A DNA stretch of 64,000 nt from Deltaproteobacteria bacterium (GCA_016218805.1 JACRCW010000017.1:53-64052), one strand, 5' to 3'. Shown: positions 5,023 to 64,000, counted from the first letter of the stretch. A program made the numbers and translations. The notes: generated from the letters alone by a model not told the origin.

Positions 5023-5549
5023 TTCCCTGGCTCCAAGCGGCTGGCGGATTCCCCGCCGCGCCCCGGGCGGGAAGCGCAGCCACGCCGCTGTTTCCTGCGC
5101 GTTGACGACGGCGGGCGTGCGCTTGTTTCCGCCGAGCGCGTGGACGCGGAGTTGGTGGACGATGTGGCGTCCCACGCAAGGTGAGACGTCGCCCGATGGG
5201 GACCCGCAGTCGCTGCCCGTCTATGCGCCGACAGTGACGGTGACCGCGTCGGGCGGCACCACTGCCTGAACGCCGCGCGCGTCTACGATTCGCACCCAGC
5301 CGAGGGCACCCCGTGCCAGCACTGCTATCTGGGCGCATCCGCGCGTGCGCGCCAGTTCCTCCAGGTGAAAATCTCCAGTGTGCGGATTGTTCCCGTCGGT
5401 CGGTCTGATGCGCCAAGCCAGGCACGGGTGAAGGCGTGCTCTTACCATCTGTCGTCGTCCTCTCTTGCGGGCGTTGCCGCAATCGGAATCCTACCTCGCC
5501 AGGCCTGAACAGCAAGAGGCGTCGATCAACTGGCCGCCCACGGTGCGCG

Positions 5550-6092
5550 CTACTTGACCACCTCCCGCTCGCGAGGCGTGGCGTTCTCTCCCTTGCGCTG
5601 GTCCTTCCACTTCTTGGCGCGTTCGCGTTCCACCTCCACCTCGCACACTTCCTGCTCCTGCCCGGTCTGGTCCATGCAAACCTTGACGTCATGATCGACC
5701 TGGGGTTCGTCGTCTTGGACCGGCGGCCGGTCGCTTCGGCGCTGGTAGTAGTCCGGGACCGGTGGTGCCTTCGGTGCGGTGAAGCGGGCGTCCAAACCGG
5801 TGTAGCCCAGCCGCACCAGCACGATGCCGATTCCGAGGACAGCGGCGCACGCCACGCACAAACCGACGAGCGCGGCGATGGGCAGGAGCCCCACGACCGC
5901 GCCGACGTAGGCTGTGGTGCCCACTGTTGGCGCCAAGGACACGGCAGCGGCAACCCCCACCAGCGCGCCGATGGCGGCGCCAGCCAAGCCTACCAGCCCT
6001 CCCGCGAGCCCGAATCCTCCCCACGTCGTGAACGCCGCGCCGAATGCCAGCTGCACCGCGGCCATTGCGACGTCGACTGATCCGGTCTCCAT
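5550..6092 (-). CDS. Glycine-zipper membrane protein with a charged C-terminal tail
   Basis: The N-terminus contains GGFGLAGGLVGLAGAAIGALVGVAAAV, a 2TM glycine-zipper motif. The C-terminus is acidic and basic. The start was chosen at an internal Met. Confidence 0.5.
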   Translation of the reverse strand: METGSVDVAMAAVQLAFGAAFTTWGGFGLAGGLVGLAGAAIGALVGVAAAVSLAPTVGTTAYVGAVVGLLPIAALVGLCVACAAVLGIGIVLVRLGYTGLDARFTAPKAPPVPDYYQRRSDRPPVQDDEPQVDHDVKVCMDQTGQEQEVCEVEVERERAKKWKDQRKGENATPREREVVK

Positions 6093-6415
6093 GCTGACCC
6101 CCGAGGTTGAACGCGGCCGGATGCTGCCGCGGTTCCGCGCTCCCGTCGACGTGCCGCACGTGCGACGCATGCTGACGCTGGCAAACGCTGCGCGCCGCGG
6201 CGGCAAACGTGTCGCGCCGTTCTCCGCCTCGGGGCTGAACGGCCATTCACCCGCTCGGGAAACGCGCTGCATGACGTATCCCATCCCCACGCATTGCCAG
6301 TCTGTCACGTCGTGCCCTGCCCCGGCTGTTACGGCGGGAACCCGCTGTAACGGATCTTGCCCGGGCGTGTCGCTTTGTGGTTGACGATGGGACGCAGCGT
6401 AATACACTGGGACGC

Positions 6416-7096
6416 ATGGAAACCCGCACCGTTGCCTACATCCGCGTGTCCACCGACAAGCAGGCCGACAAGGGCGTGAGCCTGGAGGCCCAGCGGGCGA
6501 AGGTGGAGGCCTACGCCACCCTCTACGATCTGGACATCGTGGACGTGGTGGTGGACGCGGGCGTTTCCGCCAAGACGCTGGACCGGCCGGGGCTCAACCG
6601 TGCGCTGGGGATGCTCAAGTCCGGCGCGGCTGACGCGCTGCTGGTGGTGAAGCTGGACCGCCTCACCCGCAGCGTCGTGGACCTTGGGACGCTGGTGGAC
6701 GCCTACTTCGCGGCGGGCAAGTGGGCGCTTCTGTCCGTGGGTGAGCAGATCGACACCCGCAGCGCCGCGGGCCGTCTCGTCCTCAACGTGCTGGCCAGCG
6801 TGAGTCAGTGGGAGCGCGAAGCCATCGGGGAGCGCACCAGCGCGGCGATGCAGCACAAGGCGTCACAGGGCGAGTACACCGGCGGTGGGGCGCCGTACGG
6901 CTTCCGCGTGGCGGCGGACGGCGTGCACTTGGACGAGGAACCCGCGGAGCAAGCGGTGCTTGATGAAGCACGCGCCCTGCGCGCCGCGGGGTTGTCCCTG
7001 CGCGCGGTGGCGGCGGAACTGGATCGGTTGGGCATGCGGTCTCGCGTGGGAAGCCCCTTCGCCGCTGTGCAGGTGGCGCGGATGGTGGCGGCATGA
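6416..7096 (+). CDS. Serine recombinase (resolvase/invertase family)
   Basis: The N-terminus VAYIRVSTDKQ carries the catalytic Ser motif, and there is a resolvase fold with a C-terminal HTH. Confidence 0.85.
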   Translation: METRTVAYIRVSTDKQADKGVSLEAQRAKVEAYATLYDLDIVDVVVDAGVSAKTLDRPGLNRALGMLKSGAADALLVVKLDRLTRSVVDLGTLVDAYFAAGKWALLSVGEQIDTRSAAGRLVLNVLASVSQWEREAIGERTSAAMQHKASQGEYTGGGAPYGFRVAADGVHLDEEPAEQAVLDEARALRAAGLSLRAVAAELDRLGMRSRVGSPFAAVQVARMVAA

Positions 7097-7440
7097 CGGC
7101 GCGGCCGGTGGACCTGGACGCGGTGCGCGCGTCGCGGAAGCGCCTGCGCGCCCTGGCGGCGGCGCACCCGCAGCTGCGCGGCGAGCCCGGCGCGAACAAC
7201 GTGAGCGGATGGGAAGCAACCCTGGCGACGGAGGAAGCACGAATGGCGACGCAACAGGTTGGGATCAGGCTGCCGGAGGAACTGGTGGCGCGGCTGGACC
7301 AGCACGTTGAGCGGATGCGCGCGGCGCAGCCAGGCCTTGAGGTGACCCGCGCGGATGCTGTGCGGGTGCTCCTGACCAAGGCGCTGGACGCGGAGGGCGG
7401 CAAGCCCGCGGCAAGGACCAAGAAGGGGACCCGCCCATGA
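7093..7440 (+). CDS. Ribbon-helix-helix (CopG/Arc-like) DNA-binding protein
   Basis: The motif VGIRLPEELVARLDQHVERMR...TRADAVRVLLTKAL is RHH-like. It shares ATGA overlaps with both flanking recombinase genes. Confidence 0.6.
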   Translation: MTARPVDLDAVRASRKRLRALAAAHPQLRGEPGANNVSGWEATLATEEARMATQQVGIRLPEELVARLDQHVERMRAAQPGLEVTRADAVRVLLTKALDAEGGKPAARTKKGTRP

Positions 7441-53146: not shown

Positions 53147-54454
53147 TCAGGGGGACAATGCCTCAATCACGACGTCACGCCCGGCGCGGGCCATGGATTC
53201 CAGTTCTTCGTGCCGCGCGCGCAGGCGTGCGTCCCGCGTGTCCCCGGCCAGCCGTGCGATGCGGATGCCCTTGTCCAGCACGGTGCGCACGGCAACGCGG
53301 GCGCGGGTGGCGGTGAAGAAGTGGTGGCCAAACCGGCGCAGGCGGCGTTCGTCAACAAGAACGCCAAGACCCGGGGCGGTGGGCAGTTCCAGCGTGCCGC
53401 GGTCATGCGTCCAGCAGGCCTGCAGGATCCCGTCGCGTCCCTCCGGGGTCCACCCGGGCGGGTTGTACGGGTACTCCAAAAGCGTGTCCTGGCGGAACGG
53501 GCTGGCCGCGTGCAGCTGCAGGTTGATGGCAAACCCCACGCCGTTGGTCCACGTGTGCGGCGTGTACCGCGCCCCGGCCTCTTTCACGCGCTGGATGATG
53601 CGCCAGGTGTCCGCAATGCCGCCGGTGAACACGGCGTCGGGCTGGTAGACGTCGTAACAACGCTTCTCCAGCATGACGCGGAACTCGGGCAGGCCCTGGT
53701 TGTTCAGTTCGCCCCCGGCCACGTCAATCTCCGTGGCCTCCCGCAGCGCGGCCAGCGCGTCGTAGTCATCCATGGGCAGCGGTTCCTCCACCCATGCCAG
53801 GCCGGCCTGGTGGGCGGCGTCACAGAACGCGCGGGCGCGCGGCAGGTCCCAGCACGGGGCGTCCGCCACCACGGCCACGCGCCACGCCTGGTTGGCGTCC
53901 ACGCCCAGCACCACCGCATCACCCACGGCGCGGCGCGTGTCCCGCACCTGCGCCACGTCCTCCGCCAGCGTGGCGGCGTGCACGCGCAGCTTCACGGCGG
54001 TGAATCCCTCCGCCAGGCGCGCTTCCACCTCCCGGATGCGCTCCGGGGCCTGCTTCACTTCGCCGGTGGACGCGTACAGGCGCACCTTCCCCGGCTGCCC
54101 GCCCAGCAGTTCATACACGGGCTTGCCGCGCGCCTTGCCCACCACGTCCCAGCACGCGGGCTCCAGCCACCCCACGCGCATGCCCAGATACCCCATCTCG
54201 CGAATGCGCTGGCGGATGGAGGGGATGTCATCCGCGCGCTCGCCCAGCAGGTAGGGGCCCAGCAGGCTGCCCAGGCCTTCCCGCTCCCGTCCCAGCGCGG
54301 CGCCGGCGGTCCATCCCTGGAGACCGGAGGCGGTGGTGACGCGCGCCAGCGTGAAGCGGTTCTCCGTCTGGGGAAAGCCCGGAATCCAGGACGGCCAGAA
54401 GATGTCCGGGAGCGGAATGCTGACGTGCCAGAGGTCAATCCGCGTGATGCGCAT
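53147..54454 (-). CDS. Enolase-superfamily enzyme (mandelate racemase / muconate lactonizing enzyme family)
   Basis: It has the MR/MLE N-terminal capping domain and C-terminal barrel. Metal-ligand contexts include VKLRV, LGVDANQAW and EEPLP. Confidence 0.7.
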   Translation of the reverse strand: MRITRIDLWHVSIPLPDIFWPSWIPGFPQTENRFTLARVTTASGLQGWTAGAALGREREGLGSLLGPYLLGERADDIPSIRQRIREMGYLGMRVGWLEPACWDVVGKARGKPVYELLGGQPGKVRLYASTGEVKQAPERIREVEARLAEGFTAVKLRVHAATLAEDVAQVRDTRRAVGDAVVLGVDANQAWRVAVVADAPCWDLPRARAFCDAAHQAGLAWVEEPLPMDDYDALAALREATEIDVAGGELNNQGLPEFRVMLEKRCYDVYQPDAVFTGGIADTWRIIQRVKEAGARYTPHTWTNGVGFAINLQLHAASPFRQDTLLEYPYNPPGWTPEGRDGILQACWTHDRGTLELPTAPGLGVLVDERRLRRFGHHFFTATRARVAVRTVLDKGIRIARLAGDTRDARLRARHEELESMARAGRDVVIEALSP

Positions 54455-54455
54455 G

Positions 54456-55829
54456 TCAGGCGTCGTCACCGGTGCCCATGCCCCAGCGTTCCAACTTCCG
54501 GTACAGCGTCTTGCGGTCCAGGCCCAGCACGCGTGACGCCATGGTCTTGTTGTTCCCCACGGCCTCCAGCACGCGCAGGATGTACCGCTTCTCAACCTCT
54601 TCCATGGGAACAAGTTCCGAAGGATCCTGCGCCGCCACCAGCACGTGGGAGGCGCGGTAGTCGCGGATCTTCTCGGGCAGGTCATCCACGGTGATGCGGT
54701 CAAACCGGGTGAGCGCCACCGCGCGTTCCATGCAGTTCTGCAGTTCCCGCACGTTGCCGGGCCAGTGGTAGGTCAGCAGCTTCTCCGCCGCGGGGCCCAG
54801 GATTCCCACCACGTTCTTGCTGGCGCGGCCGGCAAACACGTCAATGAAGTGCTGCGCCAGCAGGAGCACGTCGCTGCCGCGGGCGCGCAGCGGCGGCAGC
54901 TCCACCTTGATGACATTGAGCCGGTAATAGAGGTCCTCCCGGAAGCGCTTCTCTTCCAGCAGGCCCTCCAGGTCGCGGTTGGTGGCGGCAATGATGCGCA
55001 CGTCCACGGCCACCTCGGTGTCCGCGCCCACGGGGCGGACCACGCGCTCCTGCAGCACGCGCAGCAGCTTGGGCTGCGTGCCCATGGGCATCTCGCCAAT
55101 CTCGTCAAGAAACAGGGTGCCCTGGTGCGCCTGCAGGAACAGCCCCGCGCGCGCGGTGCGCGCGTCGGTGAAGGCGCCACGCGCATGGCCGAACAACTCA
55201 CTCTCCAGCAGCGTCTCCGGCATGGCCGCGCAGTTGATGGCCACAAACGGGCCGGCCTTCCGGCGCGACCGCGCGTGCAGCGCGCGCGCCACCAGTTCCT
55301 TGCCGGTGCCGCTCTCGCCGGTGACCAGCACGGTGGTCTCCGAGTCCGCAATGCGGTCCAGCAGGTCGTAGACGGTGCGCATGGCGGGGCTGGCGCCCAG
55401 CAGCTCGCCAAACTGGCGCCCCTCACTGACGGCGGCGCGCAGGCGCTTCACCTCCTGGGACAGCGCGCGGTGCTTGACGGCGCGGTCCAGCGTGAGGGCC
55501 AGCTGCGCCACTTCCAGCGGCTTGGTGATGAAGTCATACGCGCCCACGCGGATGGCGCCCACCGCGGTTTCCAGGCTGCCAAACGCGGTGATGACCACCA
55601 CCGGCGTGTCCGGCCGGTTCTGCACAATGCGCTCACACAGCTGCAGGCCGTTGACGCCCTTCATGTTGAGGTCCGTGACCACGGCGTCGTAGTCGTCCGC
55701 CAGCGCCTGTTGCAGCGCCGCTTCCCCGGACGTGCGCCAGTCCACCTGGAAGCCGCGGCGGCTGAGCCCGGCCTCCAGCATCTGGCACATGCTCTCGTCG
55801 TCGTCGACCACCAGGATACGTGCGGCCAT
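54456..55829 (-). CDS. Sigma-54-dependent response regulator (NtrC family enhancer-binding protein)
   Basis: A receiver domain (ILVVDDD) is followed by an AAA+ sigma-54 interaction domain (GESGTGKELVARALH, GAFTDA, ESELFGH) and a C-terminal Fis-type HTH. Confidence 0.9.
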   Translation of the reverse strand: MAARILVVDDDESMCQMLEAGLSRRGFQVDWRTSGEAALQQALADDYDAVVTDLNMKGVNGLQLCERIVQNRPDTPVVVITAFGSLETAVGAIRVGAYDFITKPLEVAQLALTLDRAVKHRALSQEVKRLRAAVSEGRQFGELLGASPAMRTVYDLLDRIADSETTVLVTGESGTGKELVARALHARSRRKAGPFVAINCAAMPETLLESELFGHARGAFTDARTARAGLFLQAHQGTLFLDEIGEMPMGTQPKLLRVLQERVVRPVGADTEVAVDVRIIAATNRDLEGLLEEKRFREDLYYRLNVIKVELPPLRARGSDVLLLAQHFIDVFAGRASKNVVGILGPAAEKLLTYHWPGNVRELQNCMERAVALTRFDRITVDDLPEKIRDYRASHVLVAAQDPSELVPMEEVEKRYILRVLEAVGNNKTMASRVLGLDRKTLYRKLERWGMGTGDDA

Positions 55830-55898
55830 GGCGCCTTCCGCGGAACGTGTTGCGCCCGCGCTCCTAACAACGGCCCGCGGTGCACTCAAGGCGCGGTG

Positions 55899-57362
55899 TC
55901 AGGACCGCGGCAGGAACACGCTGAAGGTGCTGCCCTGCCCCGGCTGGCTGTGCACCGTGATCCACCCGCCGTGCTCGCGGACAATGCCATACGCAACGGA
56001 CAGGCCCAGCCCCGTGCCCTCACCCACGTCCTTGGTCGTGTAGAACGGCTCAAAAATCCGGCCCAGGTCCTCCGGCCGGATGCCGTGCCCGGAATCCGTG
56101 ACGTCAATGCGGAGGTACGCTCCGGGCTGCGCGTCCTCGCCCGGCGGCGGCGTGGCCTGCACCGGGTGCACGGTCACCACCAGGGTCCCGCCGCTTTCCG
56201 GCGTGGCCTGGATGGCGTTCACCGCCAGGTTGGTGAGCACCTGCTGGATCTGGTTGGCGTCCACCTCCACCGGCGGCAGGTCCTCCGGGCCCTCCACGGC
56301 GGTGGCCACCTGCCGCTTCTGCGCCATGGGTCTGAGGAGTTGGAGTGTCTGCCGCGCCAGGGTGAGCACGGACACCGGCGCCTTCTGCGGCCCGCGCCGC
56401 CGCGCAAAGTCCAACAGCTGGCGGATGATCTTGGTGATGCGCTCAGACTGCTCCACAATGATGCGCGCGTTGACCTGCGCCTCCTCCGGCGTGCACCCCG
56501 GGTCCTGGATCATCCGCGCGCGGCCCGCCACCACGTTGAGCGGCGTCCCCAGTTCATGCGCAATGCCGCTGGCCAGCTTGCCCACCGTCATCAGGCGGTC
56601 CGCGTGGCGCAGCGCCTCCAGCGCCTGGATGCGCGCCTGCGTCTCGCGCTCAATGCTGTCCTGCGCCTCAGACAGGCGGTCGCTCATGGCGTTCATCTCG
56701 TGCGCCAGCTCGCCAATCTCGTCGTCCTGGGTCAGCTCCAGGCGGCCGGTCAGCTCCCCCTCGCCAATGCGCCGCGCGCGCTCCGCCAGCCGCCGCATGG
56801 GCCGCCCCACGAAGTACACGCCCACCAGCAGCGCGACCAGCCCGCTCACCAGCGCCATGGCTCCCGTCGTGATGCCCAGGCGGATCACCGTCTCGCGCAG
56901 GAACTCGCGGGGGGGCGCCAGGGATTCTGACAGCTCCAGCGCGCCGGGCGGCAGCGGGTCCAGCATGATCGGGATGTAGACGTACGCGCGGCTCTCGCCC
57001 TTGGCGTCGGGATCGCTCAGCCAGGACACTTCCTCGCCGCGCGCCACGCGCCGCAGGTAGCGCGGGCGCAGCAGCGGGTGGTGCGGGTCACCCTCCGGGG
57101 CGGAAAGGGACACCCAGCGGATCCGCACGCGCCGGTGCATCTCCTCGTCGTATTCCAGCACCTGCATGGCCAGGACCTGGCCCTCGCGCTGCCACAGGCG
57201 CACCAGCGCCGGCTTCAGTGCCCGGCCAATGATGCGCAGGTCGTCAATCACGTCCTCTTCCAGCGCGGTCTCCTCGCGCGCCACCTCAAAGAACGCGTGC
57301 ACGCCCAGCACACCCCAGATGCCCAGCAGCAGCGTGAGTGTCAGCTTCCGCGCCAGCTTCAT
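55899..57362 (-). CDS. Sensor histidine kinase (HAMP, HisKA and HATPase domains)
   Basis: The protein has N-terminal transmembrane segments. Motifs are the H-box HELGTPLNVV, the N-box LTNLAVNAIQAT and the G-boxes DSGHGI / GTGLGLS. Confidence 0.85.
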   Translation of the reverse strand: MKLARKLTLTLLLGIWGVLGVHAFFEVAREETALEEDVIDDLRIIGRALKPALVRLWQREGQVLAMQVLEYDEEMHRRVRIRWVSLSAPEGDPHHPLLRPRYLRRVARGEEVSWLSDPDAKGESRAYVYIPIMLDPLPPGALELSESLAPPREFLRETVIRLGITTGAMALVSGLVALLVGVYFVGRPMRRLAERARRIGEGELTGRLELTQDDEIGELAHEMNAMSDRLSEAQDSIERETQARIQALEALRHADRLMTVGKLASGIAHELGTPLNVVAGRARMIQDPGCTPEEAQVNARIIVEQSERITKIIRQLLDFARRRGPQKAPVSVLTLARQTLQLLRPMAQKRQVATAVEGPEDLPPVEVDANQIQQVLTNLAVNAIQATPESGGTLVVTVHPVQATPPPGEDAQPGAYLRIDVTDSGHGIRPEDLGRIFEPFYTTKDVGEGTGLGLSVAYGIVREHGGWITVHSQPGQGSTFSVFLPRS

Positions 57363-57474
57363 TCCACCACCTCGGGCCGCCCGTGCTGAGCCAGGACCGT
57401 GCCACTCCCGGCCCGCCGGCACCATCCTCCGCAACGCTCGCCTCAGACCACCCCGCGGCGGTAGGTCTTGAGCC

Positions 57475-57933
57475 ATGGACGGTGCGCTGCGCGTCACAGA
57501 GCAAGCCCGCGCGGACCTGCTGCGCCACGCCGCGGCCGCCTACCCGCGTGAAGCCTGCGGCCTGCTGGCCGGTCCGCCCGCCCCCGCGCCCGCGGATTGC
57601 TACCTGCCGCTCCCCAACCGCCACGCCGGCGCCCATGCGTTCTCCGTCGACGATGCGGCCCACGTGCGCGCGCTGCTGGCACTGCGGCGCGCGCACCGCC
57701 AGGCGCGCGCGTTCTGCCACTCGCACCCGGATGCGCCGGCGGTTCCCTCGGCCCGTGACCTGGCCGGCGCGCTGCTTGGCGGGGAACCGGCGTTTCCCGG
57801 CGTGGACCACGTCATCGTCACGGTGAACCGCGGCCAGAGCACGGACGCGCGCGCGTGGCGGCTGCGGGATGGCGCGTTCCACGCCGTCGCGTTGTCCGCC
57901 GCCGGGGAGGTCCCATGCTCGCCGCGCTGCTGA
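57475..57933 (+). CDS. JAMM/MPN+ metalloprotease-family protein
   Basis: The Glu residue (EACGLLAG) and the full H-x-H-x7-S-x2-D motif (HSHPDAPAVPSARD) are present. Confidence 0.75.
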   Translation: MDGALRVTEQARADLLRHAAAAYPREACGLLAGPPAPAPADCYLPLPNRHAGAHAFSVDDAAHVRALLALRRAHRQARAFCHSHPDAPAVPSARDLAGALLGGEPAFPGVDHVIVTVNRGQSTDARAWRLRDGAFHAVALSAAGEVPCSPRC

Positions 57934-58655
57934 TGGTCATGGCGGTGGCGCCGGCGCAGCTGTGTGAGGCTTCCGCGCTGCCGGACCCCGCCGCGCTGCT
58001 GGACGCTCCCACCGCGGACATTTCTGACCAGGACGCGGACGTGGCGCGGCGGCGGGCGCTGCTGGCCGCGGCGTTTGGCCTGGCCCCGTGGGGTGGCGCC
58101 GTGGTGGTGGGCGGTGCCGCCACGGCCGCGCTGTGCGGGCTGGGTTTCGGCGGGTGCCTGACCGCGTGGTCACGGTCGTTCCAGGGCCAGGCTGGTGCCG
58201 GGCTGTCCAACGTGGAGTGGGCCGCGTTGGTGGCGGGCCTGGCCGGTTTGGTCACCGCCACCATGACGCTGATCCTGCTCCCGCTGGCCGGGCCCGTCGC
58301 CATCAGCGCCGCGCACGGGAGACGCGCCGGGTCGGTCATCGGGTTGCTGTGGTGGGTGGCCACCGTTGCGCCCGCGCTGCTGTCCATCCCGCTGGGCCTG
58401 CTGGCGGGCGTGGCGGCCACCGGCGTGCTGGGGTTGGGCGGCTGCCTGATGATGACGGACGCCAACACCCGCGGCGCCCGGCGCGAATCCGTCTGGTCCT
58501 TGTGGTCCGTCGGCGCCGGCCTGGGGGCCAGTCTGTGGGCGGTGGCGTTGGCGCAGTTTGCGCTGCCCGCGGTGCTGCACGCCGGGCTGGCCTGGTACCT
58601 GGCTCCCCGGGAGACCCACCTGGCCGGATCGTTTCCCGCCGCGGCCCCGGAGTGA
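57915..58655 (+). CDS. Hypothetical polytopic membrane protein (Gly/Ala-rich transmembrane segments). Its start overlaps the JAMM gene.
   Basis: The start MLAALLMVMAV overlaps the JAMM gene by 19 nt. Several hydrophobic helices are predicted. Confidence 0.45.
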   Translation: MLAALLMVMAVAPAQLCEASALPDPAALLDAPTADISDQDADVARRRALLAAAFGLAPWGGAVVVGGAATAALCGLGFGGCLTAWSRSFQGQAGAGLSNVEWAALVAGLAGLVTATMTLILLPLAGPVAISAAHGRRAGSVIGLLWWVATVAPALLSIPLGLLAGVAATGVLGLGGCLMMTDANTRGARRESVWSLWSVGAGLGASLWAVALAQFALPAVLHAGLAWYLAPRETHLAGSFPAAAPE

Positions 58656-58730
58656 CCCGTGGTGGACGCCGCGCATGGACGCACGCCGGGCGTTCACCTA
58701 CCGTCGTGGGAGGACGCAGAGGAAACCCGC

Positions 58731-59567
58731 ATGGCCCACGCAACGCCCCACATTCACGACGCCACCGCGCTGGCGCACCGCCTGGAGGACGCGTGCCGCG
58801 CACTGGAAAGCGCGGTGGTGGCCTACTCGGGTGGGGTGGACAGCGCGGTGGTGCTGGCGGCGGCGCACCGCGTGCTGGGGCAGCGCATGGTGGGCCTGAT
58901 GGCGCTGAGCCCCAGCTTCCCGTCCTGGGAGTTGGCGGACGCGCAGGCGCAGGCCGGCGCGGTGGGCGCCGAACTGGTGGTGGCGCGCACGGATGAGCTG
59001 TCCAACCCGCGCTACGCGGCCAACACCGGGGACCGCTGCTACTTCTGCAAGTCCGCATTGTTTGACGCGTGCGAACGCGCGCGTACGGAGCGCGGCTTCC
59101 GCGCCATTGCGTACGGCGCCAACCTGGATGACCTGGGTGACGACCGCCCCGGGCACCTGGCCGCGCGGGAACGGGGCATTGCCTCCCCGCTCATTGACGC
59201 GGGATTGAACAAGGCCGCGGTCCGCCGCGTGGCGGCGCACTACGGCCTGTCCAGCGCGGACAAGCCGGCGCTGGCCTGCCTGTCCAGCCGGTTTCCCACG
59301 GGGACCCCCATTGACGCGGAGCGCCTGGCCCGGGTGGGACAGGCCGAACGCGTGCTGGTGGACCTGGGCTTCCGCCGCGTGCGCGTCCGTTTCCACGACG
59401 AGCTGGCCCGCATTGAGGTGGACCCTGAAGACCTGCCGCGCCTGCTGCAGCCCGCCACCCGGGCGCTCGCCGTGGCGGGCGTGCGCGCCGCCGGCTTCCG
59501 GCACGTCACCGTGGACCTGGAAGGCTACCGGATGGGCGGCGCCAACCGCCTGACCGTGCTGTCCTGA
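58731..59567 (+). CDS. PP-loop ATP pyrophosphatase, LarE / TIGR00268-like
   Basis: The PP-loop SGGVDS is present, as is the Cys cluster GDRCYFCKSALFDAC, typical of LarE-like and TtuA-like sulfur-transferases. Confidence 0.7.
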   Translation: MAHATPHIHDATALAHRLEDACRALESAVVAYSGGVDSAVVLAAAHRVLGQRMVGLMALSPSFPSWELADAQAQAGAVGAELVVARTDELSNPRYAANTGDRCYFCKSALFDACERARTERGFRAIAYGANLDDLGDDRPGHLAARERGIASPLIDAGLNKAAVRRVAAHYGLSSADKPALACLSSRFPTGTPIDAERLARVGQAERVLVDLGFRRVRVRFHDELARIEVDPEDLPRLLQPATRALAVAGVRAAGFRHVTVDLEGYRMGGANRLTVLS

Positions 59568-59672
59568 CGCGCAGGGCCAAACCCGTTCTCCGTACGCGCG
59601 TGCGGGCGTGCGCGTCCGGCTTGCAGTAAGGTCGGCACGGTGCGGCCCCCTGGCGGGCCATGGAGCGTTTCC

Positions 59673-62489
59673 ATGTTTGGTTCCTCCCGGCGTGACAGGT
59701 GGCTCTGGCTTGGTGTGGCGCTGCTTGGCGTGGTGCGCTGTTCCGGCGGCACGGGGTGTTCCTGCCTGGCCCCGCTGGAGGGGCCGTTCCCGGAGGACCG
59801 CAAGAGCCGCCAGGTGATCCAGGCGCGCGTGACGCCGGAGGGGTTCAGCTTCATCGGCCAGAAGGTGCCCACCATCGTCGGCGCCATGGTCAGCACGGAC
59901 TGCACGGGCCTCTCCGGCGTCAACTGCCCGGCGGCGTATTCGTGCTCCTGCCCAACGGGACAGACCTGCCAGAGCTGCGCCGCGTCCAACCCGTTCTGCA
60001 CGCTGGCCAATCCCAAGGTGTGCCTGCCCACCAACGGCCAGATGCCCGCGGCACCCACCATTGGCCTGCGCATCCCCAAGCTGGGGACGGAGGAACCGGA
60101 CCCCGGCGCGGACGAGGTGGACGAGTATGACGTGTGCAATTCGGACACGTTCCTGTCCTGGGACAACTGCCAGCTGTACGCCAAGATCAAGAGCGCCACC
60201 ATCCGGCCCAAGGCGGGCTCCACGACGGAACTGGAGCTCACCGCGACCATTGACCTGCAGACGCCGGACCGCCCCAACGGCATCCGCATCCGCTACGAGA
60301 AGAACCCCACGTGGCTGTGGCCGCAGATCCGCTGCACGCTGTACACGCGCCTGAGCGGGAACACGTCGCTGCCGCTGACCAAGACGGTGACCGGCACGCT
60401 CGCCGTCGGGCGGGACGCGCGCACAGACCGCATGACGCTGGGGGTGGCCTCGCTGGATATCCCCATCCAGGGCAGTGACCTCGCCGTGGAGCGGGAATCC
60501 GGGGATGAGATTGAGTGCGCGGTGCTGGACTTTGACTTCGTCAAGGACCTGTTGGTGGGCCAGCTGAAGGGGCAGATCGTGGACGCCGCGCGTAACGCCA
60601 TCGACGGCGTGTTGGAGCCGCTCACCACGCAGGCGTGTGACCCGGACCTCACCACCTACCAATGCCCGCGCCTGGCCAACGGCGAACAGACCGTGTGCGT
60701 GCGGTCGGACAAGAAGTGCCACTTCGCCTCGGGCGCGCAGGAGCCCATCCCCGGGCTGCTGGGGATGGAAGGGTCCCTGGACCTCTCCGGCGCCATGCCG
60801 GACCTGCTCACGCTGCCGGGCTCCGTGCAGTTCACCACGTACGCCGGTGGCACCCGCGCCAGCGGCACCACCAGCGTGTACACCGCGGCCGGTGGGCTCA
60901 ACGTGGGCCTGGTGGGCGGGGCCATGGCGCCACAGAACCCGTGCGTGGCACCGCGCAACCGCAGCACCTCCACCATTGCGGACTTCACCTGGCAGTCCAC
61001 CGTTGCCCCGGCGTCTGGCGGCCCGGCGCTGCCGTATCACGCGGGGTTTGTCATTCATGAGCGGCTGATGGAGGAGTTGCTGGGTGAAGCGTACGGCGGC
61101 GGCCTGCTGTGCCAGGAGCTGTCCAGCCGCAAGATCGGCCTCATCAACAGCGGGCTCATTGGCCTGCTGCTGGGAGAAGGCACCACCGTGGGCGAGCTCA
61201 CCATGGAAAGCCGCGCGCGCCCGGTCATCATGGAGCTGCACCCGCGCGGCATCCCGGAAGCGCAGTACGGCCTGGGCACCACGGCGTTGGACCCCAATGA
61301 CCCCACGCGCACCATCCTGGATGAACCGCTGCTCACGCTGTTTGTGCCGGACCTGGACATCGACATGTACACCCTCGTCGACGACCGCTACATCCGGCTC
61401 ATCACCCTGCAGTTGGACCTGCGCATTGGCCTGGGCTTGGAGATCAACCAGCAGAACCAGGTGCACCTGATTGCGGACCCGGTGGACCGCTGGATGACCA
61501 ACGTGCGCGTGCGCAACGCGGACATCCTCAACCAGACGCCGGAGGCCATTGCGCAGGCGGTGCCGGAGCTGCTGGGCGCGTTTCTGCCGCAATTCGCTCC
61601 CAGCCTGGACCAGGTGTTTGACCTGCCGGCCATGAGCGGGTTTGTGCTGGATCAGGTGCGCTTTGTGGGCCAGAAGGCCACGGGCACCAACACCGCGTAT
61701 GACAAGCCGCGCTATGAATTCCTGGGAATCTTCTCCAACCTCGGTTTTGATCCCACGCAGGCCAGCGCGGAGCGCATTGTGGTGGAGACGCGCGCGGAAC
61801 TGGCGGAACTGGTGCTGCCCGCCCCGGAGCGCATGCACGCATCCCTGGGCGCGGCGCGCGAGCACGTGGCCGCGGTGCTGTCCGTGGACGAGAAGGGCCC
61901 GGGCGGCAAGCTGTTGGAGCACAGCTACCGCGTGGACGGTGGCTTTTGGCGTCCTTACCGGCCCGGTGCGGTGCTGCGCGTGGCCGATCCGGAGCTGAAC
62001 CTGCAGGGGTGGCACGTGGTGGAAGTGCGCTCGCGCCTGGCCGGGATTCCGGAGTCCCTGGACCCCACGCCGGTGGAAGTGCCCGTGCTGTCGGACGTGG
62101 AACCGCCGCTGCTGGAGGCCAGCCGAACGGGCCGCACGCTGGAGATCACCGTTGTGGACCGCGTGAGCGAATCTGAACGCATGACGGTGGAAGTGACGGT
62201 CCCCGGCGGCGGGTCCCTGAGCATCCCCGGCGCCGAGACGCGGACGCTGGACCTGGGGCCGGAGGTCCCGGAGGACGCGCGGCTGGTGGTCACGGCGCGG
62301 GACCAGGCGGGGCACACCGCGCGCGTGGAGCTGGGCCGCGTTGTGCCGGAGCTGGGACCCATCCTCCGCCCCGTGGAGGACGCCGCTCCCGTGACGGATG
62401 CCCAGGGTTGCAGCGGCGCGGCCGCACCGGTGGAAGCCGCGCTGGCGCTCCTGGTCCTGCTGCTGCGCCGCCGTCACTCCGCGCGCTGA
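59673..62489 (+). CDS. Large secreted lipoprotein (938 aa) with a Cys-rich N-terminal region and a MYXO-CTERM-type sorting tail
   Basis: There is a signal peptide with lipobox (VVRCSGG). The C-terminus is DAQGCSGAAAPVEAALALLVLLLRRRHSAR. The opposite-strand 1303-aa ORF was judged spurious. Confidence 0.75.
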   Translation: MFGSSRRDRWLWLGVALLGVVRCSGGTGCSCLAPLEGPFPEDRKSRQVIQARVTPEGFSFIGQKVPTIVGAMVSTDCTGLSGVNCPAAYSCSCPTGQTCQSCAASNPFCTLANPKVCLPTNGQMPAAPTIGLRIPKLGTEEPDPGADEVDEYDVCNSDTFLSWDNCQLYAKIKSATIRPKAGSTTELELTATIDLQTPDRPNGIRIRYEKNPTWLWPQIRCTLYTRLSGNTSLPLTKTVTGTLAVGRDARTDRMTLGVASLDIPIQGSDLAVERESGDEIECAVLDFDFVKDLLVGQLKGQIVDAARNAIDGVLEPLTTQACDPDLTTYQCPRLANGEQTVCVRSDKKCHFASGAQEPIPGLLGMEGSLDLSGAMPDLLTLPGSVQFTTYAGGTRASGTTSVYTAAGGLNVGLVGGAMAPQNPCVAPRNRSTSTIADFTWQSTVAPASGGPALPYHAGFVIHERLMEELLGEAYGGGLLCQELSSRKIGLINSGLIGLLLGEGTTVGELTMESRARPVIMELHPRGIPEAQYGLGTTALDPNDPTRTILDEPLLTLFVPDLDIDMYTLVDDRYIRLITLQLDLRIGLGLEINQQNQVHLIADPVDRWMTNVRVRNADILNQTPEAIAQAVPELLGAFLPQFAPSLDQVFDLPAMSGFVLDQVRFVGQKATGTNTAYDKPRYEFLGIFSNLGFDPTQASAERIVVETRAELAELVLPAPERMHASLGAAREHVAAVLSVDEKGPGGKLLEHSYRVDGGFWRPYRPGAVLRVADPELNLQGWHVVEVRSRLAGIPESLDPTPVEVPVLSDVEPPLLEASRTGRTLEITVVDRVSESERMTVEVTVPGGGSLSIPGAETRTLDLGPEVPEDARLVVTARDQAGHTARVELGRVVPELGPILRPVEDAAPVTDAQGCSGAAAPVEAALALLVLLLRRRHSAR

Positions 62490-62621
62490 AACGCGCGCGT
62501 CCCCGCCCAAGCACCGGCTGCCGCAGTGCGTCAGCCCCATTGACAGCGCGGCTCCTCCGTGGGAGCCAGCGCGCGCTTTTTGACGAGGCGGACGGCCTCT
62601 CCCACGCACCTGGAGGAACCC

Positions 62622-63368
62622 GTGAAAATCCTGGTCACCGTCAAGCGGGTGATGGACTACAACGTCAAACCCAAAGTCAAACCGGATGGCAGTGGCGTCG
62701 TCACGGACGGCGTCAACATGATCGTGAACCCGTTCGACGAGATCGCGGTTGAGGAGTCCCTGAAGCTCAAGGAGAAGAACGGCGGCGAGGTGGTGGTGCT
62801 CTCCATTGGCACCAAGGACACCACCACGCAGATCCGCGCGGCGCTGGCCATGGGCGCGGACCGCGGCATCCTGGTGCTGGCGGACGGCAGCGTGGACCCG
62901 GACGCGGCGGCACGGCTCATCAAGGCCGTGTATGAGCAGGAGAAGCCGGACCTGGTGGTGCTGGGCAAGCAGGCCATTGATGACGACAGCAGCCAGGCCG
63001 GCCAGCTGTTGGCCGAGTACCTGGGCCTCCCGCAGGCGACGTTTGCCTCCAAGGTGGACGTGGCGGGCAAGACCGTCACCGTCACGCGCGAGGTGGACGG
63101 CGGCCTGGAGACCATCTCCTTTGACATGCCCGGCGTGGTGACGGCGGACCTGCGGCTCAACACGCCGCGGTACGCGTCACTCCCCGGCATCATGAAGGCC
63201 AAGAAGAAGGAGGTGAAGGAATTCACGCCGGCGGCGCTGGGCGTGGACATTGCCCCCAAGGTGAAGGTCCTCAAGCTTGAGGAGCCCAAGGCGCGCCAGG
63301 CCGGCCAGAAGGTGCCGGACGTGGCCACGCTCGTCGGGAAGCTGCGCAACGAGGCCAAGGCCCTCTGA
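62622..63368 (+). CDS. etfB: Electron transfer flavoprotein beta subunit
   Basis: The GTG start gives VKILVTVKRVMDYNVK, and the protein matches EtfB along its whole length. Confidence 0.85.
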   Translation: MKILVTVKRVMDYNVKPKVKPDGSGVVTDGVNMIVNPFDEIAVEESLKLKEKNGGEVVVLSIGTKDTTTQIRAALAMGADRGILVLADGSVDPDAAARLIKAVYEQEKPDLVVLGKQAIDDDSSQAGQLLAEYLGLPQATFASKVDVAGKTVTVTREVDGGLETISFDMPGVVTADLRLNTPRYASLPGIMKAKKKEVKEFTPAALGVDIAPKVKVLKLEEPKARQAGQKVPDVATLVGKLRNEAKAL

Positions 63369-63385
63369 GAGGCTGGGAGAACAAC

Positions 63386-64000
63386 ATGGCAACGGTGCTT
63401 GTGATTGCAGAGCAGGCGGGCGGGAAGGTCAAGAAGGCGTCCCTGGCGGCCATCACCGCGGGGCAGCAGCTCGCCAAGGGCGGCGCGATGCACATCGGCG
63501 TGCTGGGTGAGAACCCGGCGGACGCCGCGGCGTCGCTGCTGGGGTACGGCGCGGCCAAGGTGCACGCGGCGGCGCATGCCGGCCTGGCGCACTATCTGGC
63601 CGAGCCGTTCGCCAAGGTGGTGGCTGACCTGGCCAAGGCCAACGGCGCCACGCACGTGGTGCTGCCCGCCACGGCGCAGGGCAAGGACGTGGCGCCGCGC
63701 ATTGCGGCGCGGCTGGGCGCGGGCATGGCGTCGGACATCTCGGCGGTGGTGGATGACAAGACGTTCAAGCGGCCCATGTGGGCGGGCAACGTCGTGGGCG
63801 CGGTGGAGATCACCACGGCGGTGAAGGTGGTGACGGTGCGCGTGAGCGAGTTCGCGGCCGCCGCGGCCGGCGCCGCGGCGGGCGAGGTGGCGAAGTTTGC
63901 CGCGGACCCGGGGACGCCCAAGGCAAAGTTCATCAAGTTTGAGGAAGTGAAGAGCGCGCGGCCGGAGCTGACGGAGGCGTCCATCATTGTGTCTGGTGGC
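63386..64000 (+). CDS. etfA: Electron transfer flavoprotein alpha subunit (3'-truncated by the window end)
   Basis: The N-terminus MATVLVIAEQAGGKVKKASLAAITAG matches the EtfA N-terminal domain. The ORF runs to the window edge. Confidence 0.85.
   Translation, partial: MATVLVIAEQAGGKVKKASLAAITAGQQLAKGGAMHIGVLGENPADAAASLLGYGAAKVHAAAHAGLAHYLAEPFAKVVADLAKANGATHVVLPATAQGKDVAPRIAARLGAGMASDISAVVDDKTFKRPMWAGNVVGAVEITTAVKVVTVRVSEFAAAAAGAAAGEVAKFAADPGTPKAKFIKFEEVKSARPELTEASIIVSGG

What the first reader, a model, noticed from the sequence alone, without database searches (positions are those of the whole stretch)
57475..62489. JAMM/MPN+ protease - membrane protein - PP-loop (LarE/TtuA-like) ATPase cluster upstream of a MYXO-CTERM giant protein
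An intact JAMM motif (E...HSHPx7SxxD) is usually partnered with ubiquitin-like sulfur-carrier or conjugation systems (CysO/Mec+, TtuB). Here it is translationally coupled to a membrane protein and followed by a Cys-cluster PP-loop ATPase. No ThiS/MoaD-like ORF of at least 60 aa is visible, so a small GG-terminated carrier gene may have been missed, or this may be a non-canonical arrangement.
Basis: partly seen in the sequence, partly recalled or inferred. Interest (0 to 1): 0.6.

Follow-up and report, generated by a model that had tools for sequence, protein, structure and literature searches.

The report
Orphan JAMM peptidase beside LarE
A small metalloprotease of the type that trims ubiquitin-like sulfur-carrier proteins lies in one gene row with an uncharacterised membrane protein and LarE, the iron-sulfur enzyme that inserts sulfur into the nickel-pincer cofactor; related myxobacterial contigs carry the same row with the carrier, its activating enzyme and a cysteine synthase attached, so this is a stripped-down copy of a known sulfur-carrier system in a neighbourhood I found no report of, not a new system.

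Summary
An intact JAMM gene (57475-57933) overlaps a membrane-protein gene (57915-58655) by 19 nt. Next come a strong LarE match (58731-59567; SGGVDS and CxxC...C, the [4Fe-4S] type) and a 938-aa protein with a borderline MYXO-CTERM tail. No ubiquitin-like carrier, E1, CysM, LarB or LarC gene was detected in the 64 kb. Comparison explains the row. In Myxococcales contigs L171 and L106 the order is ThiF-like E1, ThiS/SAMP-like carrier ending GG-Cys, CysM, JAMM, APS kinase, LarE, then a homologue of the 938-aa protein. At least 20 of 80 other JAMM relatives sit in cysM-JAMM-cysO-E1 clusters, and their carriers end GG plus 0-3 residues. The window therefore holds a reduced descendant: a Mec+/CysO-type carrier peptidase without its partners, next to an ordinary cluster-type LarE. 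The JAMM-LarE link is rare (1 of 80 LarE loci, 1 of 80 JAMM loci) but recurs in three myxobacterial lineages. A closer relative (L179) has membrane protein-LarE and no JAMM. The membrane protein has only three detectable homologues. A direct carrier-to-LarE sulfur relay is possible but not shown. Interest is moderate.

The parts
57475..57933 (+). JAMM/MPN+ metallopeptidase, 152 aa, of the Mec+/CysO-hydrolase-like subfamily of Prok-JAB. Catalytic residues E26, H82, H84, S92 and D95 are intact.
   Evidence: Pfam PF14464 59.5 bits. Invariant columns in alignment A1. Relatives lie in cysM-JAMM-cysO-E1 clusters. The best PDB matches, 2KKS and 2KCQ, are stand-alone JAB proteins.
57915..58655 (+). 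Lineage-restricted membrane protein, 246 aa. It has a signal peptide with a lipobox-like Cys17, and the model predicts about four long hydrophobic helices. Invariant features are APWG, C74-G-x-G77, H134, R137, AQF and H222. Function unknown. It overlaps the JAMM gene by 19 nt.
   Evidence: Gene call on L001. Codon-position GC 0.74/0.60/0.91. It finds only itself in the word-indexed search and three homologues at 33-37% identity in the exhaustive search. L179 and L180 have the homologue directly upstream of LarE. The AF2 model has pLDDT 62 with 4 long helices, and there is no Foldseek match.
58731..59567 (+). LarE, the ATP-dependent sulfur insertase of nickel-pincer nucleotide cofactor synthesis, 278 aa. 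It is the [4Fe-4S]-type: PP-loop SGGVDS (33-38), C103, C106 and C183. The SSR and RVR residues match the P2CMN phosphate-binding residues S180/R212/R214 of the L. plantarum enzyme.
   Evidence: TIGR00268 299.8 bits against a cut-off of 150. Alignments to 5UDQ/6B2O and 8CNZ. The CXXC-C motif and the one-residue shift relative to Cys176 are as described for LarE of Thermotoga maritima (PMC9283937). Relatives at about 44% identity lie in larE-larB-larC operons.
59673..62489 (+). 938-aa secreted or surface protein with no Pfam or NCBIfam match on its main body. It has a Cys-rich N-terminal part and a MYXO-CTERM-type C-terminal sorting signal (GCSG...hydrophobic...RRRH). It is a conserved downstream neighbour of LarE.
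   Evidence: TIGR03901 19.4 (cut-off 20) and TIGR03382 16.5 (cut-off 15.85). It is homologous to the 965-aa gene directly after LarE in L171 (BLASTP 2e-36, 26% over 648 aa). That protein also has a Cys-type C-terminal signal.
55899..57362 (-). Divergently transcribed sensor histidine kinase (HAMP, HisKA, HATPase_c). The sigma-54-dependent response regulator follows at 54456-55889 (-). The pair is syntenic with the membrane protein-LarE pair in relative L179.
   Evidence: Pfam. L179 tblastn gives HK 67% and RR 76% identity, in the same divergent arrangement. The start at ATG 57362 is inferred from the L179 gene length of 487 aa.
57389..57404 (-). Sigma-54-type promoter-like site, TGGCACGGTCCTGGCT, facing the histidine kinase operon and not the JAMM row.
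   Evidence: Pattern scan, 10 of 11 specified positions. No such site lies on the + strand before JAMM, LarE or the 938-aa gene.

Best explanation
The row JAMM, membrane protein, LarE and surface protein is a reduced descendant of a myxobacterial sulfur-metabolism gene block. The fuller form is: ThiF-like E1, ThiS/SAMP-like carrier ending GG-Cys, CysM, JAMM, APS kinase CysC, LarE, surface protein.

Shown:
- The JAMM is catalytically intact and belongs to the Mec+/CysO-hydrolase-like clade.
- LarE is a regular [4Fe-4S]-type LarE.
- The order JAMM, one gene, LarE, large surface protein is shared with L171.

Inferred:
- The JAMM removes the residues that follow the Gly-Gly of a ThiS/CysO-like carrier, or releases cysteine from a CysO-cysteine adduct. 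In this genome that carrier must be encoded outside the 64-kb window.
- LarE adenylates pyridinium-3,5-biscarboxylate mononucleotide (P2CMN) and transfers a sulfide held on its cluster.
- The two are linked through a shared sulfur supply and co-expression (thiocarboxylate-dependent cysteine synthesis feeding the sulfur donor of LarE), not through a demonstrated direct contact.

The membrane protein is a fast-evolving gene of this lineage that occupies the slot held by cysC in L171. It stays with LarE whether or not the JAMM is present. Its role is unknown.
For: Identity of the two enzymes:
- JAMM motif and family.
- LarE family score, PP-loop and CXXC-C motif: and PMC9283937.
- Relatives of this LarE lie in larE-larB-larC operons.

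The fuller gene block in relatives:
- L171 and L106/L175-177 encode ThiF, ThiS (NCBIfam SAMP1 74 bits, cut-off 60; C-terminus AIAGGC), a 100-aa ORF with weak similarity to the E1 N-terminus, CysM-like (TIGR01138 307 bits), JAMM, APS kinase and LarE (310 bits). L171 continues with a 965-aa homologue of the window's 938-aa protein.
- L181, whose JAMM loop is most like the window's, has a CysO-ThiF fusion, then JAMM, then CysC.
- At least 20 of 80 metagenomic JAMM relatives are flanked by CysM, a CysO-like carrier or E1. Most of the carriers read end AGG plus 1-3 residues; one ends at GG.

Other JAMM-LarE and membrane-LarE pairs:
- L021 has an Rrf2/IscR/CymR-like regulator, then JAMM, then LarE, with an 8-nt overlap between the last two.
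- L179 and L180 show membrane protein followed by LarE in closer relatives.
Against: - No carrier, E1 or CysM gene is in the window, so the JAMM's substrate here is unidentified.
- L179 keeps the membrane protein-LarE pair without a JAMM, so the JAMM is dispensable for that pair.
- JAMM next to LarE occurs in only 1 of 80 LarE loci and 1 of 80 JAMM loci.
- L171 and L106 are close relatives (carrier 98% identical). The window and L171 share ancestry of the block. The number of independent events is therefore small, two or three.
- LarB and LarC were not found in the window, so the nickel-pincer pathway context of this LarE is unverified.
Confidence: 0.55

Rival explanations
1. Direct sulfur relay. 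The ThiS/CysO-like carrier thiocarboxylate is the physiological sulfur donor to the open iron site of the LarE [4Fe-4S] cluster, as TtuB is for TtuA. The JAMM matures the carrier (GG-Cys to GG) or recycles it. JAMM and LarE stay adjacent because they serve one pathway.
For: - JAMM-LarE adjacency persists in three myxobacterial lineages while the other cys genes come and go: the window, L021 (8-nt overlap) and L171/L106.
- The LarEs beside a JAMM are not monophyletic in a rough NJ tree.
- LarE here has the tri-Cys cluster site.
- The TtuA/TtuB precedent is discussed for LarE in PMC9283937, and the in vivo donor of cluster-type LarE is not settled there.
- The library searches run here found no report of this link.
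Against: - 78 of the 80 LarE loci have no JAMM, carrier or E1 within 10 kb; L038 has only a weak distant E1-like hit.
- L179 has membrane protein-LarE without a JAMM.
- In L171 the carrier is embedded in a complete CysM-type cysteine pathway, which already explains it.
- IscS plus cysteine suffices for LarE of T. maritima in vitro.
- No interaction evidence of any kind was obtained here.
Confidence: 0.2
2. There is no functional link. The JAMM is a leftover of a cys cluster that has been broken up, and its adjacency to LarE is inherited gene order, possibly on the way to loss. The three genes are functionally independent.
For: - The partners are missing from the window.
- The sister contig L179 has already lost, or never had, the JAMM between the histidine kinase and the membrane gene.
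- The association is rare overall.
- The nearest JAMM homologues P0002, P0003 and P0006 stand alone in unrelated contexts.
Against: - The JAMM reading frame and all catalytic residues are intact, and its third-position GC (0.88) is in the range of the neighbouring genes.
- It overlaps the next gene, and a GGGGAGG ribosome-binding site lies inside its 3' end.
- Gene order is kept between lineages as diverged as 26-47% protein identity.
- In L021 the JAMM and LarE genes overlap by 8 nt.
Confidence: 0.17
3. The genes form an anti-phage or ubiquitin-like conjugation module (JAB plus a PP-loop/QueC-like ATPase), as in CBASS or Bil-type systems.
For: JAB domains and QueC-like PP-loop proteins occur in defence systems (general knowledge). 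PADLOC JAB models give weak hits of 16 bits.
Against: - There is no PADLOC hit for the membrane protein, LarE or the 938-aa protein.
- The PP-loop protein scores twice the LarE equivalog cut-off.
- The neighbours are housekeeping genes, and no E1, E2 or cyclase was detected in the window.
- Relatives sit in cysteine-synthesis clusters.
Confidence: 0.02

Closest known systems
Mec+ / CysO / CysM thiocarboxylate-dependent cysteine synthesis (Mycobacterium tuberculosis Rv1334-Rv1336, with MoeZ as E1)
   Same: The JAMM has the same fold and catalytic motif. Its relatives lie in cysM-JAMM-cysO-E1 clusters, and some are named CysO-S-L-cysteine hydrolase by JGI.
   Different: The window has no CysO, CysM or E1. 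The carriers next to most relatives carry 1-3 residues after GG, so a maturation role like that of QbsD is likely in addition. In L171 the cluster is extended by cysC and larE.
QbsD/QbsE (thioquinolobactin) and the PDTC sulfur-carrier systems of Pseudomonas
   Same: A JAMM trims a ThiS-like carrier that ends GG plus extra residues. The carrier thiocarboxylate is then used to make a thiocarboxylic acid, which is the same chemistry as the LarE product. This comparison is from my own knowledge.
   Different: No adenylating ligase of the Qbs type and no siderophore genes are present. The thiocarboxylate-forming enzyme here would be LarE, which has its own [4Fe-4S] site.
TtuA/TtuB/TtuC of Thermus thermophilus (tRNA 2-thiolation)
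   Same: A PP-loop ATPase with a three-Cys [4Fe-4S] cluster takes sulfur from a ubiquitin-like thiocarboxylate (PMC9283937). It is a working model for the rival explanation.
   Different: The enzyme here is LarE by family score and gives no reported NCBIfam hit to TtuA. The substrate is a pyridinium mononucleotide, not tRNA. No carrier is nearby.
LarE of Thermotoga maritima, and 8CNZ (which from memory I believe is the Methanococcus maripaludis LarE)
   Same: SGGxDS PP-loop, CXXC-C cluster ligands and conserved phosphate-binding Ser/Arg residues.
   Different: It is not next to larB/larC. It is flanked by a JAMM, an orphan membrane protein and a MYXO-CTERM-type protein.
HvJAMM1/SAMP1 desampylase of Haloferax volcanii
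   Same: The JAMM gives a partial match to the desampylase model, and the L171 carrier passes the SAMP1 model.
   Different: The desampylase score of 46.8 is far below the cut-off of 130. The organism is bacterial, and there is no evidence of protein conjugation.

Membership tests
JAMM/MPN+ (Pfam PF14464 Prok-JAB) | Profile match above the gathering score | tested here: met
   59.5 bits against a cut-off of 25, E 3.7e-16
JAMM/MPN+ (Pfam PF14464 Prok-JAB) | Metal and catalytic motif E...HxHx7Sx2D | tested here: met
   E26, H82, H84, S92 and D95 are invariant in alignments A1 and A2
Mec+ (CysO-cysteine hydrolase / carrier peptidase) | Encoded beside a ThiS/MoaD-like carrier and CysM | tested here: not met
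   Absent from the whole window. Met in relatives L091, L106, L111, L136, L140, L171 and L181.
Mec+ (CysO-cysteine hydrolase / carrier peptidase) | Hydrolysis of the carrier C-terminal extension or of the CysO-Cys adduct | not testable with these tools
   Needs an enzyme assay
Desampylase HvJAMM1 (NCBIfam NF041370) | Equivalog score at or above 130 bits | tested here: not met
   46.8 bits
LarE (NCBIfam TIGR00268) | Equivalog score at or above 150 bits | tested here: met
   299.8 bits, E 1.4e-89
LarE (NCBIfam TIGR00268) | PP-loop SGGxDS | tested here: met
   SGGVDS at residues 33-38. It aligns to the L. plantarum LarE PP-loop.
LarE, [4Fe-4S]-dependent class | CXXC-C cluster ligands, with the third Cys shifted by one residue from Cys176 of the L. 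plantarum enzyme | tested here: met
   C103, C106 and C183. They align to the Cys of 8CNZ, and C183 is offset by one from C176 of 5UDQ. The motif definition is in PMC9283937. Cluster binding itself was not tested.
LarE (pathway membership) | LarB and LarC encoded in the same genome | tested here: inconclusive
   A motif scan (motifs recalled from memory) finds none in the window. The rest of the MAG is not available. Relatives L035 and L072 have larE-larB-larC.
TtuA-type tRNA thiolase | Match to a TtuA family model | tested here: not met
   No TtuA family among the NCBIfam hits at E up to 0.01. The only tRNA thiolase hit is MnmA at 19 bits against a cut-off of 284.
MYXO-CTERM sorting signal | C-terminal domain model at or above its cut-off | tested here: inconclusive
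   TIGR03901 19.4 against 20 (just below). TIGR03382 16.5 against 15.85 (just above). No myxosortase gene is in the window.
Anti-phage defence systems (PADLOC) | Matches to the component models of a system | tested here: not met
   Only JAB at 16 bits, and nothing for the other three proteins

The most novel reading that the evidence does not exclude
In some Myxococcota the cluster-dependent LarE takes its sulfur from a ThiS/CysO-like protein thiocarboxylate, activated by a ThiF-type E1 and matured by the adjacent JAMM. That would be a TtuB-to-TtuA-like relay feeding nickel-pincer cofactor synthesis. The conserved membrane protein, or the neighbouring MYXO-CTERM machinery, might be a further and unsuspected partner.
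Probability: 0.15. Interest if true: 0.65.

Novelty: new variant of a known kind. Interest (0 to 1): 0.36.

Why it matters
The physiological sulfur donor of the widespread [4Fe-4S]-type LarE is not settled. Only a heterologous cysteine desulfurase has been shown to work in vitro (PMC9283937). A recurrent myxobacterial gene block joins an E1, a ubiquitin-like carrier, CysM, a JAMM, APS kinase and LarE. This gives a concrete and testable candidate, the carrier thiocarboxylate, and names the organisms in which to test it. For the window itself the practical result is an annotation. The JAMM is a Mec+/CysO-type carrier peptidase whose partners lie elsewhere. The PP-loop protein is LarE. The membrane gene belongs to a family of at most a handful of known members. 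A side observation is that LarE is followed by a myxosortase-family protease in 21 of 80 related loci. Here and in L171 it is followed instead by a protein with a Cys-type C-terminal sorting signal. The myxosortase papers I read do not mention this synteny.

Tried and rejected
- Missed carrier gene. I scanned all six frames of the window for ORFs of at least 40 aa ending in GG or GG plus up to 8 residues. None has coding-like codon statistics. tblastn with the L106 carrier, E1, CysM and CysC also finds nothing.
- Loop insertion as a marker. I first thought the loop insertion after SxxD (ALLGGEPAFPG) marked a LarE-linked JAMM subfamily. It is common to scores of the Mec-like JAMMs retrieved in these searches, so I dropped the idea.
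- Closest JAMM homologues. The contexts of P0002, P0003, P0006 and P0034 contain no LarE and no carrier.
- Membrane protein. Pfam, NCBIfam and PADLOC give nothing. The word-indexed search finds only the protein itself. The AlphaFold2 model from 4 sequences is of low confidence (pLDDT 62), and Foldseek against the PDB gives no hit below E = 1. It has no CPBP/myxosortase motifs on reading the sequence, and it is unrelated to the APS kinase that occupies its slot in L171.
- Regulation. There is no Rfam match or riboswitch in 54000-64000, no sigma-70-like promoter, and only chance-level terminator-like sites. The only sigma-54-like site faces the kinase operon.
- Defence-system reading: rejected.
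- TtuA reading: rejected.
- Structure model of LarE. I did not run it because the tool returns no coordinates, so the Cys geometry could not be measured. I used alignment to solved LarE chains instead.

Full report
**What is in the window**

The region has about 70% GC, and the coding frames are clear from codon-position GC. An independent gene call on an identical Logan contig (L001) gives four co-directional genes:
- JAMM, 57475-57933, 152 aa.
- A membrane protein, 57915-58655, 246 aa. Its ATG follows GGGGAGG, and the gene overlaps the JAMM gene by 19 nt.
- A PP-loop protein, 58731-59567, 278 aa.
- A 938-aa protein, 59673-62489.

Upstream and divergent lie a HAMP/HisKA histidine kinase and a sigma-54-dependent response regulator. 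Downstream is etfB. NCBI labels the source "MAG: Deltaproteobacteria bacterium".

**The JAMM**

It scores 59.5 bits against Prok-JAB. E26, H82, H84, S92 and D95 are invariant in alignments with relatives. It does not reach the desampylase equivalog score (46.8 against 130). No close homologue exists among 5.8 billion proteins; the next best is 39-43% identical.

**The PP-loop protein is LarE**

- It scores 299.8 bits against TIGR00268, whose cut-off is 150.
- It has SGGVDS, C103-x2-C106 and C183.
- The alignment to L. plantarum LarE places C183 one residue after the sacrificial Cys176. The Ser and Arg-x-Arg that bind the substrate phosphate are retained.
- All three Cys align with Cys of 8CNZ.
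- This is the CXXC-C pattern that Chatterjee et al. showed binds a [4Fe-4S] cluster in Thermotoga maritima LarE, and which they say most LarE homologues share (PMC9283937).
- Relatives at about 44% identity lie in larE-larB-larC operons: L035 is confirmed with NCBIfam, and L072 by motif.

This is therefore an ordinary cluster-type LarE. It is not TtuA-like.

**The downstream protein**

Its C-terminal tail is borderline for MYXO-CTERM: 19.4 against 20 for TIGR03901, and 16.5 against 15.85 for TIGR03382. At 938 aa it is large, not giant.

**No carrier in the window**

- A six-frame scan for ORFs of at least 40 aa ending in GG, or GG plus up to 8 residues, found none with coding-like codon composition.
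- Pfam scans of 28 ORFs across the window found housekeeping genes (dnaE, pgi, lpxD, dapF, recN, tsaB, xerC-like, amidase, rtcB and others). There was no ThiS/MoaD, ThiF, cysteine synthase or desulfurase.
- tblastn with a carrier, E1, CysM and CysC from a related locus hit only the JAMM.
- Motif scans found no LarB or LarC.

**Are the genes co-localised elsewhere?**

Starting from LarE, 80 genome loci were fetched, the best only 54% identical. A JAMM lies within 10 kb in just one, L021 (Myxococcales bacterium). There the order is an Rrf2/IscR/CymR-like regulator, JAMM, then LarE, and the last two overlap by 8 nt.

Starting from the JAMM, 80 metagenome loci were fetched. LarE is present in one, L106. 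L106, its duplicates L175-177 and the 54-kb contig L171 share one row:
- a ThiF-family E1;
- a 93-aa ThiS/SAMP1-like carrier ending AIAGGC (SAMP1 model 74 bits, cut-off 60);
- a 100-aa ORF with weak similarity to the E1 N-terminus;
- a CysM-like cysteine synthase;
- the JAMM;
- APS kinase;
- LarE (310 bits).

In L171 the gene after LarE is a 965-aa protein homologous to the window's 938-aa protein (E 2e-36, 26% over 648 aa). It also has a Cys-type C-terminal sorting signal. The order JAMM, one gene, LarE, large surface protein is therefore shared between the window and L171, although the proteins are only 26-47% identical.

**What kind of JAMM this is**

- At least 20 of the 80 JAMM loci carry CysM, a CysO-like carrier or an E1 next to the JAMM, usually in the order cysM-JAMM-cysO-E1.
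- Most of the carriers read end AGG followed by one to three residues (C, AL, AR, LR, SR, SGR, R, Y, A); one ends at GG. This is the situation in which a JAMM is needed to expose the Gly-Gly terminus.
- L181 has the JAMM whose loop is most similar to the window's, and has the same GC content. It encodes a carrier-E1 fusion (AIAGG|APGLDG...), then the JAMM, then APS kinase.
- Several relatives are named CysO-S-L-cysteine hydrolase by JGI.

The window's JAMM thus belongs to the Mec+/CysO-type carrier peptidases. A loop insertion that I first took as a marker of LarE-linked JAMMs proved common to scores of the Mec-like JAMMs retrieved in these searches.

**The membrane protein**

- It has no family match.
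- It finds only itself in the word-indexed search.
- The exhaustive search gives three homologues at 33-37% identity.
- In L179 the gene order is response regulator (76% identical), kinase (67%), then divergently the membrane protein and LarE, with no JAMM in the roughly 100-nt gap. In L180 the order is membrane protein then LarE (68% identical).
- The pair membrane protein-LarE is therefore kept in the window's own lineage, and the JAMM is not always present.
- Invariant residues are a lipobox-like Cys17, APWG, C74-G-x-G77, H134, R137, AQF and H222.
- The AlphaFold2 model is of low confidence (pLDDT 62). It shows four long helices and has no structural match.
- The protein is unrelated to the APS kinase that occupies the same slot in L171.

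**Interpretation**

The most economical reading is that the window holds a reduced descendant of the block E1-carrier-CysM-JAMM-CysC-LarE-surface protein. The upstream carrier, E1 and CysM genes are gone or moved, and cysC is replaced by a lineage-specific membrane gene. The JAMM is intact and presumably acts on a carrier encoded elsewhere. LarE does its known chemistry.

Gene order cannot decide whether the JAMM/carrier system and LarE are linked only through sulfur supply and co-regulation, or whether the carrier thiocarboxylate feeds the LarE cluster directly, as TtuB feeds TtuA.

Evidence for a link:
- The adjacency recurs in three myxobacterial lineages.
- The genes overlap in L021.
- The JAMM-linked LarEs are not monophyletic in a rough NJ tree.

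Evidence against a link:
- The association is rare.
- The JAMM is absent from L179.
- L171 contains a complete CysM pathway, which already accounts for the carrier.

I found no paper connecting LarE with a JAMM or a carrier protein.

**Regulation and other checks**

- There is no Rfam match in 54000-64000.
- There is no sigma-70-like promoter, and terminator-like sites are at chance level.
- The single sigma-54-like site (57404-57389, minus strand) faces the kinase operon.
- PADLOC gives only a 16-bit JAB hit.

**Side observation**

In 21 of the 80 LarE loci, all from one Myxococcota-like clade of the LarE tree, the gene immediately after LarE on the same strand is a myxosortase-family CPBP protease (Mrt_core 118 bits against 100). 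In the window and in L171 the gene after LarE instead carries a Cys-type C-terminal sorting signal. The myxosortase papers I read do not mention LarE. I cannot explain this and did not pursue it further.

**Verdict**

The parts are members of known families. The arrangement is a new variant of a known kind of system. Interest is moderate, and it rests mainly on the testable idea about the sulfur donor of LarE.

Noticed in passing
L013, L016, L019, L029, L031, L032, L034, L037, L038, L040, L043, L057, L059, L064, L068, L069, L070, L073, L076, L077, L080 (gene directly after LarE, e.g. L016:10750-11487): In 21 of 80 LarE loci, a myxosortase-family CPBP intramembrane protease (NCBIfam Mrt_core 118 bits, cut-off 100) lies immediately downstream of LarE on the same strand, often overlapping it. 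In the window and in L171 the gene after LarE is instead a protein with a Cys-type C-terminal sorting signal. The myxosortase papers I read do not mention this.
   Followed up: partly
window 59673-62489; L171:10199-13096: The 938-aa protein has a homologue (E 2e-36) in the same position after LarE in a distant Myxococcales contig. Neither has any Pfam domain. Both have Cys-rich N-terminal parts and a C-terminal Cys-type sorting signal.
   Followed up: partly
L181:50-1018: A ThiS/CysO-like carrier is fused in frame to a ThiF-like E1 (…VPAIAGG|APGLDG…), followed by a JAMM and an APS kinase. The JAMM would have to cut the fusion to free the carrier. Most neighbouring-carrier genes in the other loci end GG plus 1-3 residues.
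   Followed up: partly
L171:6815-7117 and L106:4797-5099: A 100-aa ORF between the carrier and CysM gives weak matches (about 30 bits) to the N-terminal segment of ThiF/MoeB E1 enzymes. The 215-aa ThiF gene upstream lacks that segment. This looks like a split or rearranged E1.
   Followed up: no
L021:9088-9555 and L021:12148-13017 (-): An Rrf2-family regulator (IscR/CymR-like, 105 bits to the superfamily model) lies directly upstream of the JAMM-LarE pair. By reading of the translation (no family search run), a quinolinate phosphoribosyltransferase (nadC)-like gene lies convergent about 1.3 kb downstream.
   Followed up: no
window 57389-57404 (-): A sigma-54-type promoter-like site, TGGCACGGTCCTGGCT, lies 27 nt upstream of the likely start (ATG 57362) of the histidine kinase. 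The adjacent response regulator has a sigma-54 activator domain, so autoregulation is possible.
   Followed up: partly
L035:9914-12874; L072 about 5300-7100: Relatives of this LarE in an Armatimonadota and a Deltaproteobacteria MAG lie in larE-larB-larC rows. In L035 the LarC reading frame is split over two overlapping ORFs.
   Followed up: yes
window 57915-58655; P0145, P0146, P0147: The membrane protein family has at most four detectable members in 1.8 billion representative proteins. All have a lipobox-like Cys, an acidic low-complexity linker, and invariant APWG, CGxG, His and AQF motifs inside hydrophobic helices. This could be a metal or thiol site, but it is untested.
   Followed up: partly
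window 53147-54703 (-): The listed ORF of an enolase-superfamily (MR/MLE) gene overlaps the 3' end of the response-regulator gene by about 250 nt. Its true start is probably further downstream.
   Followed up: no
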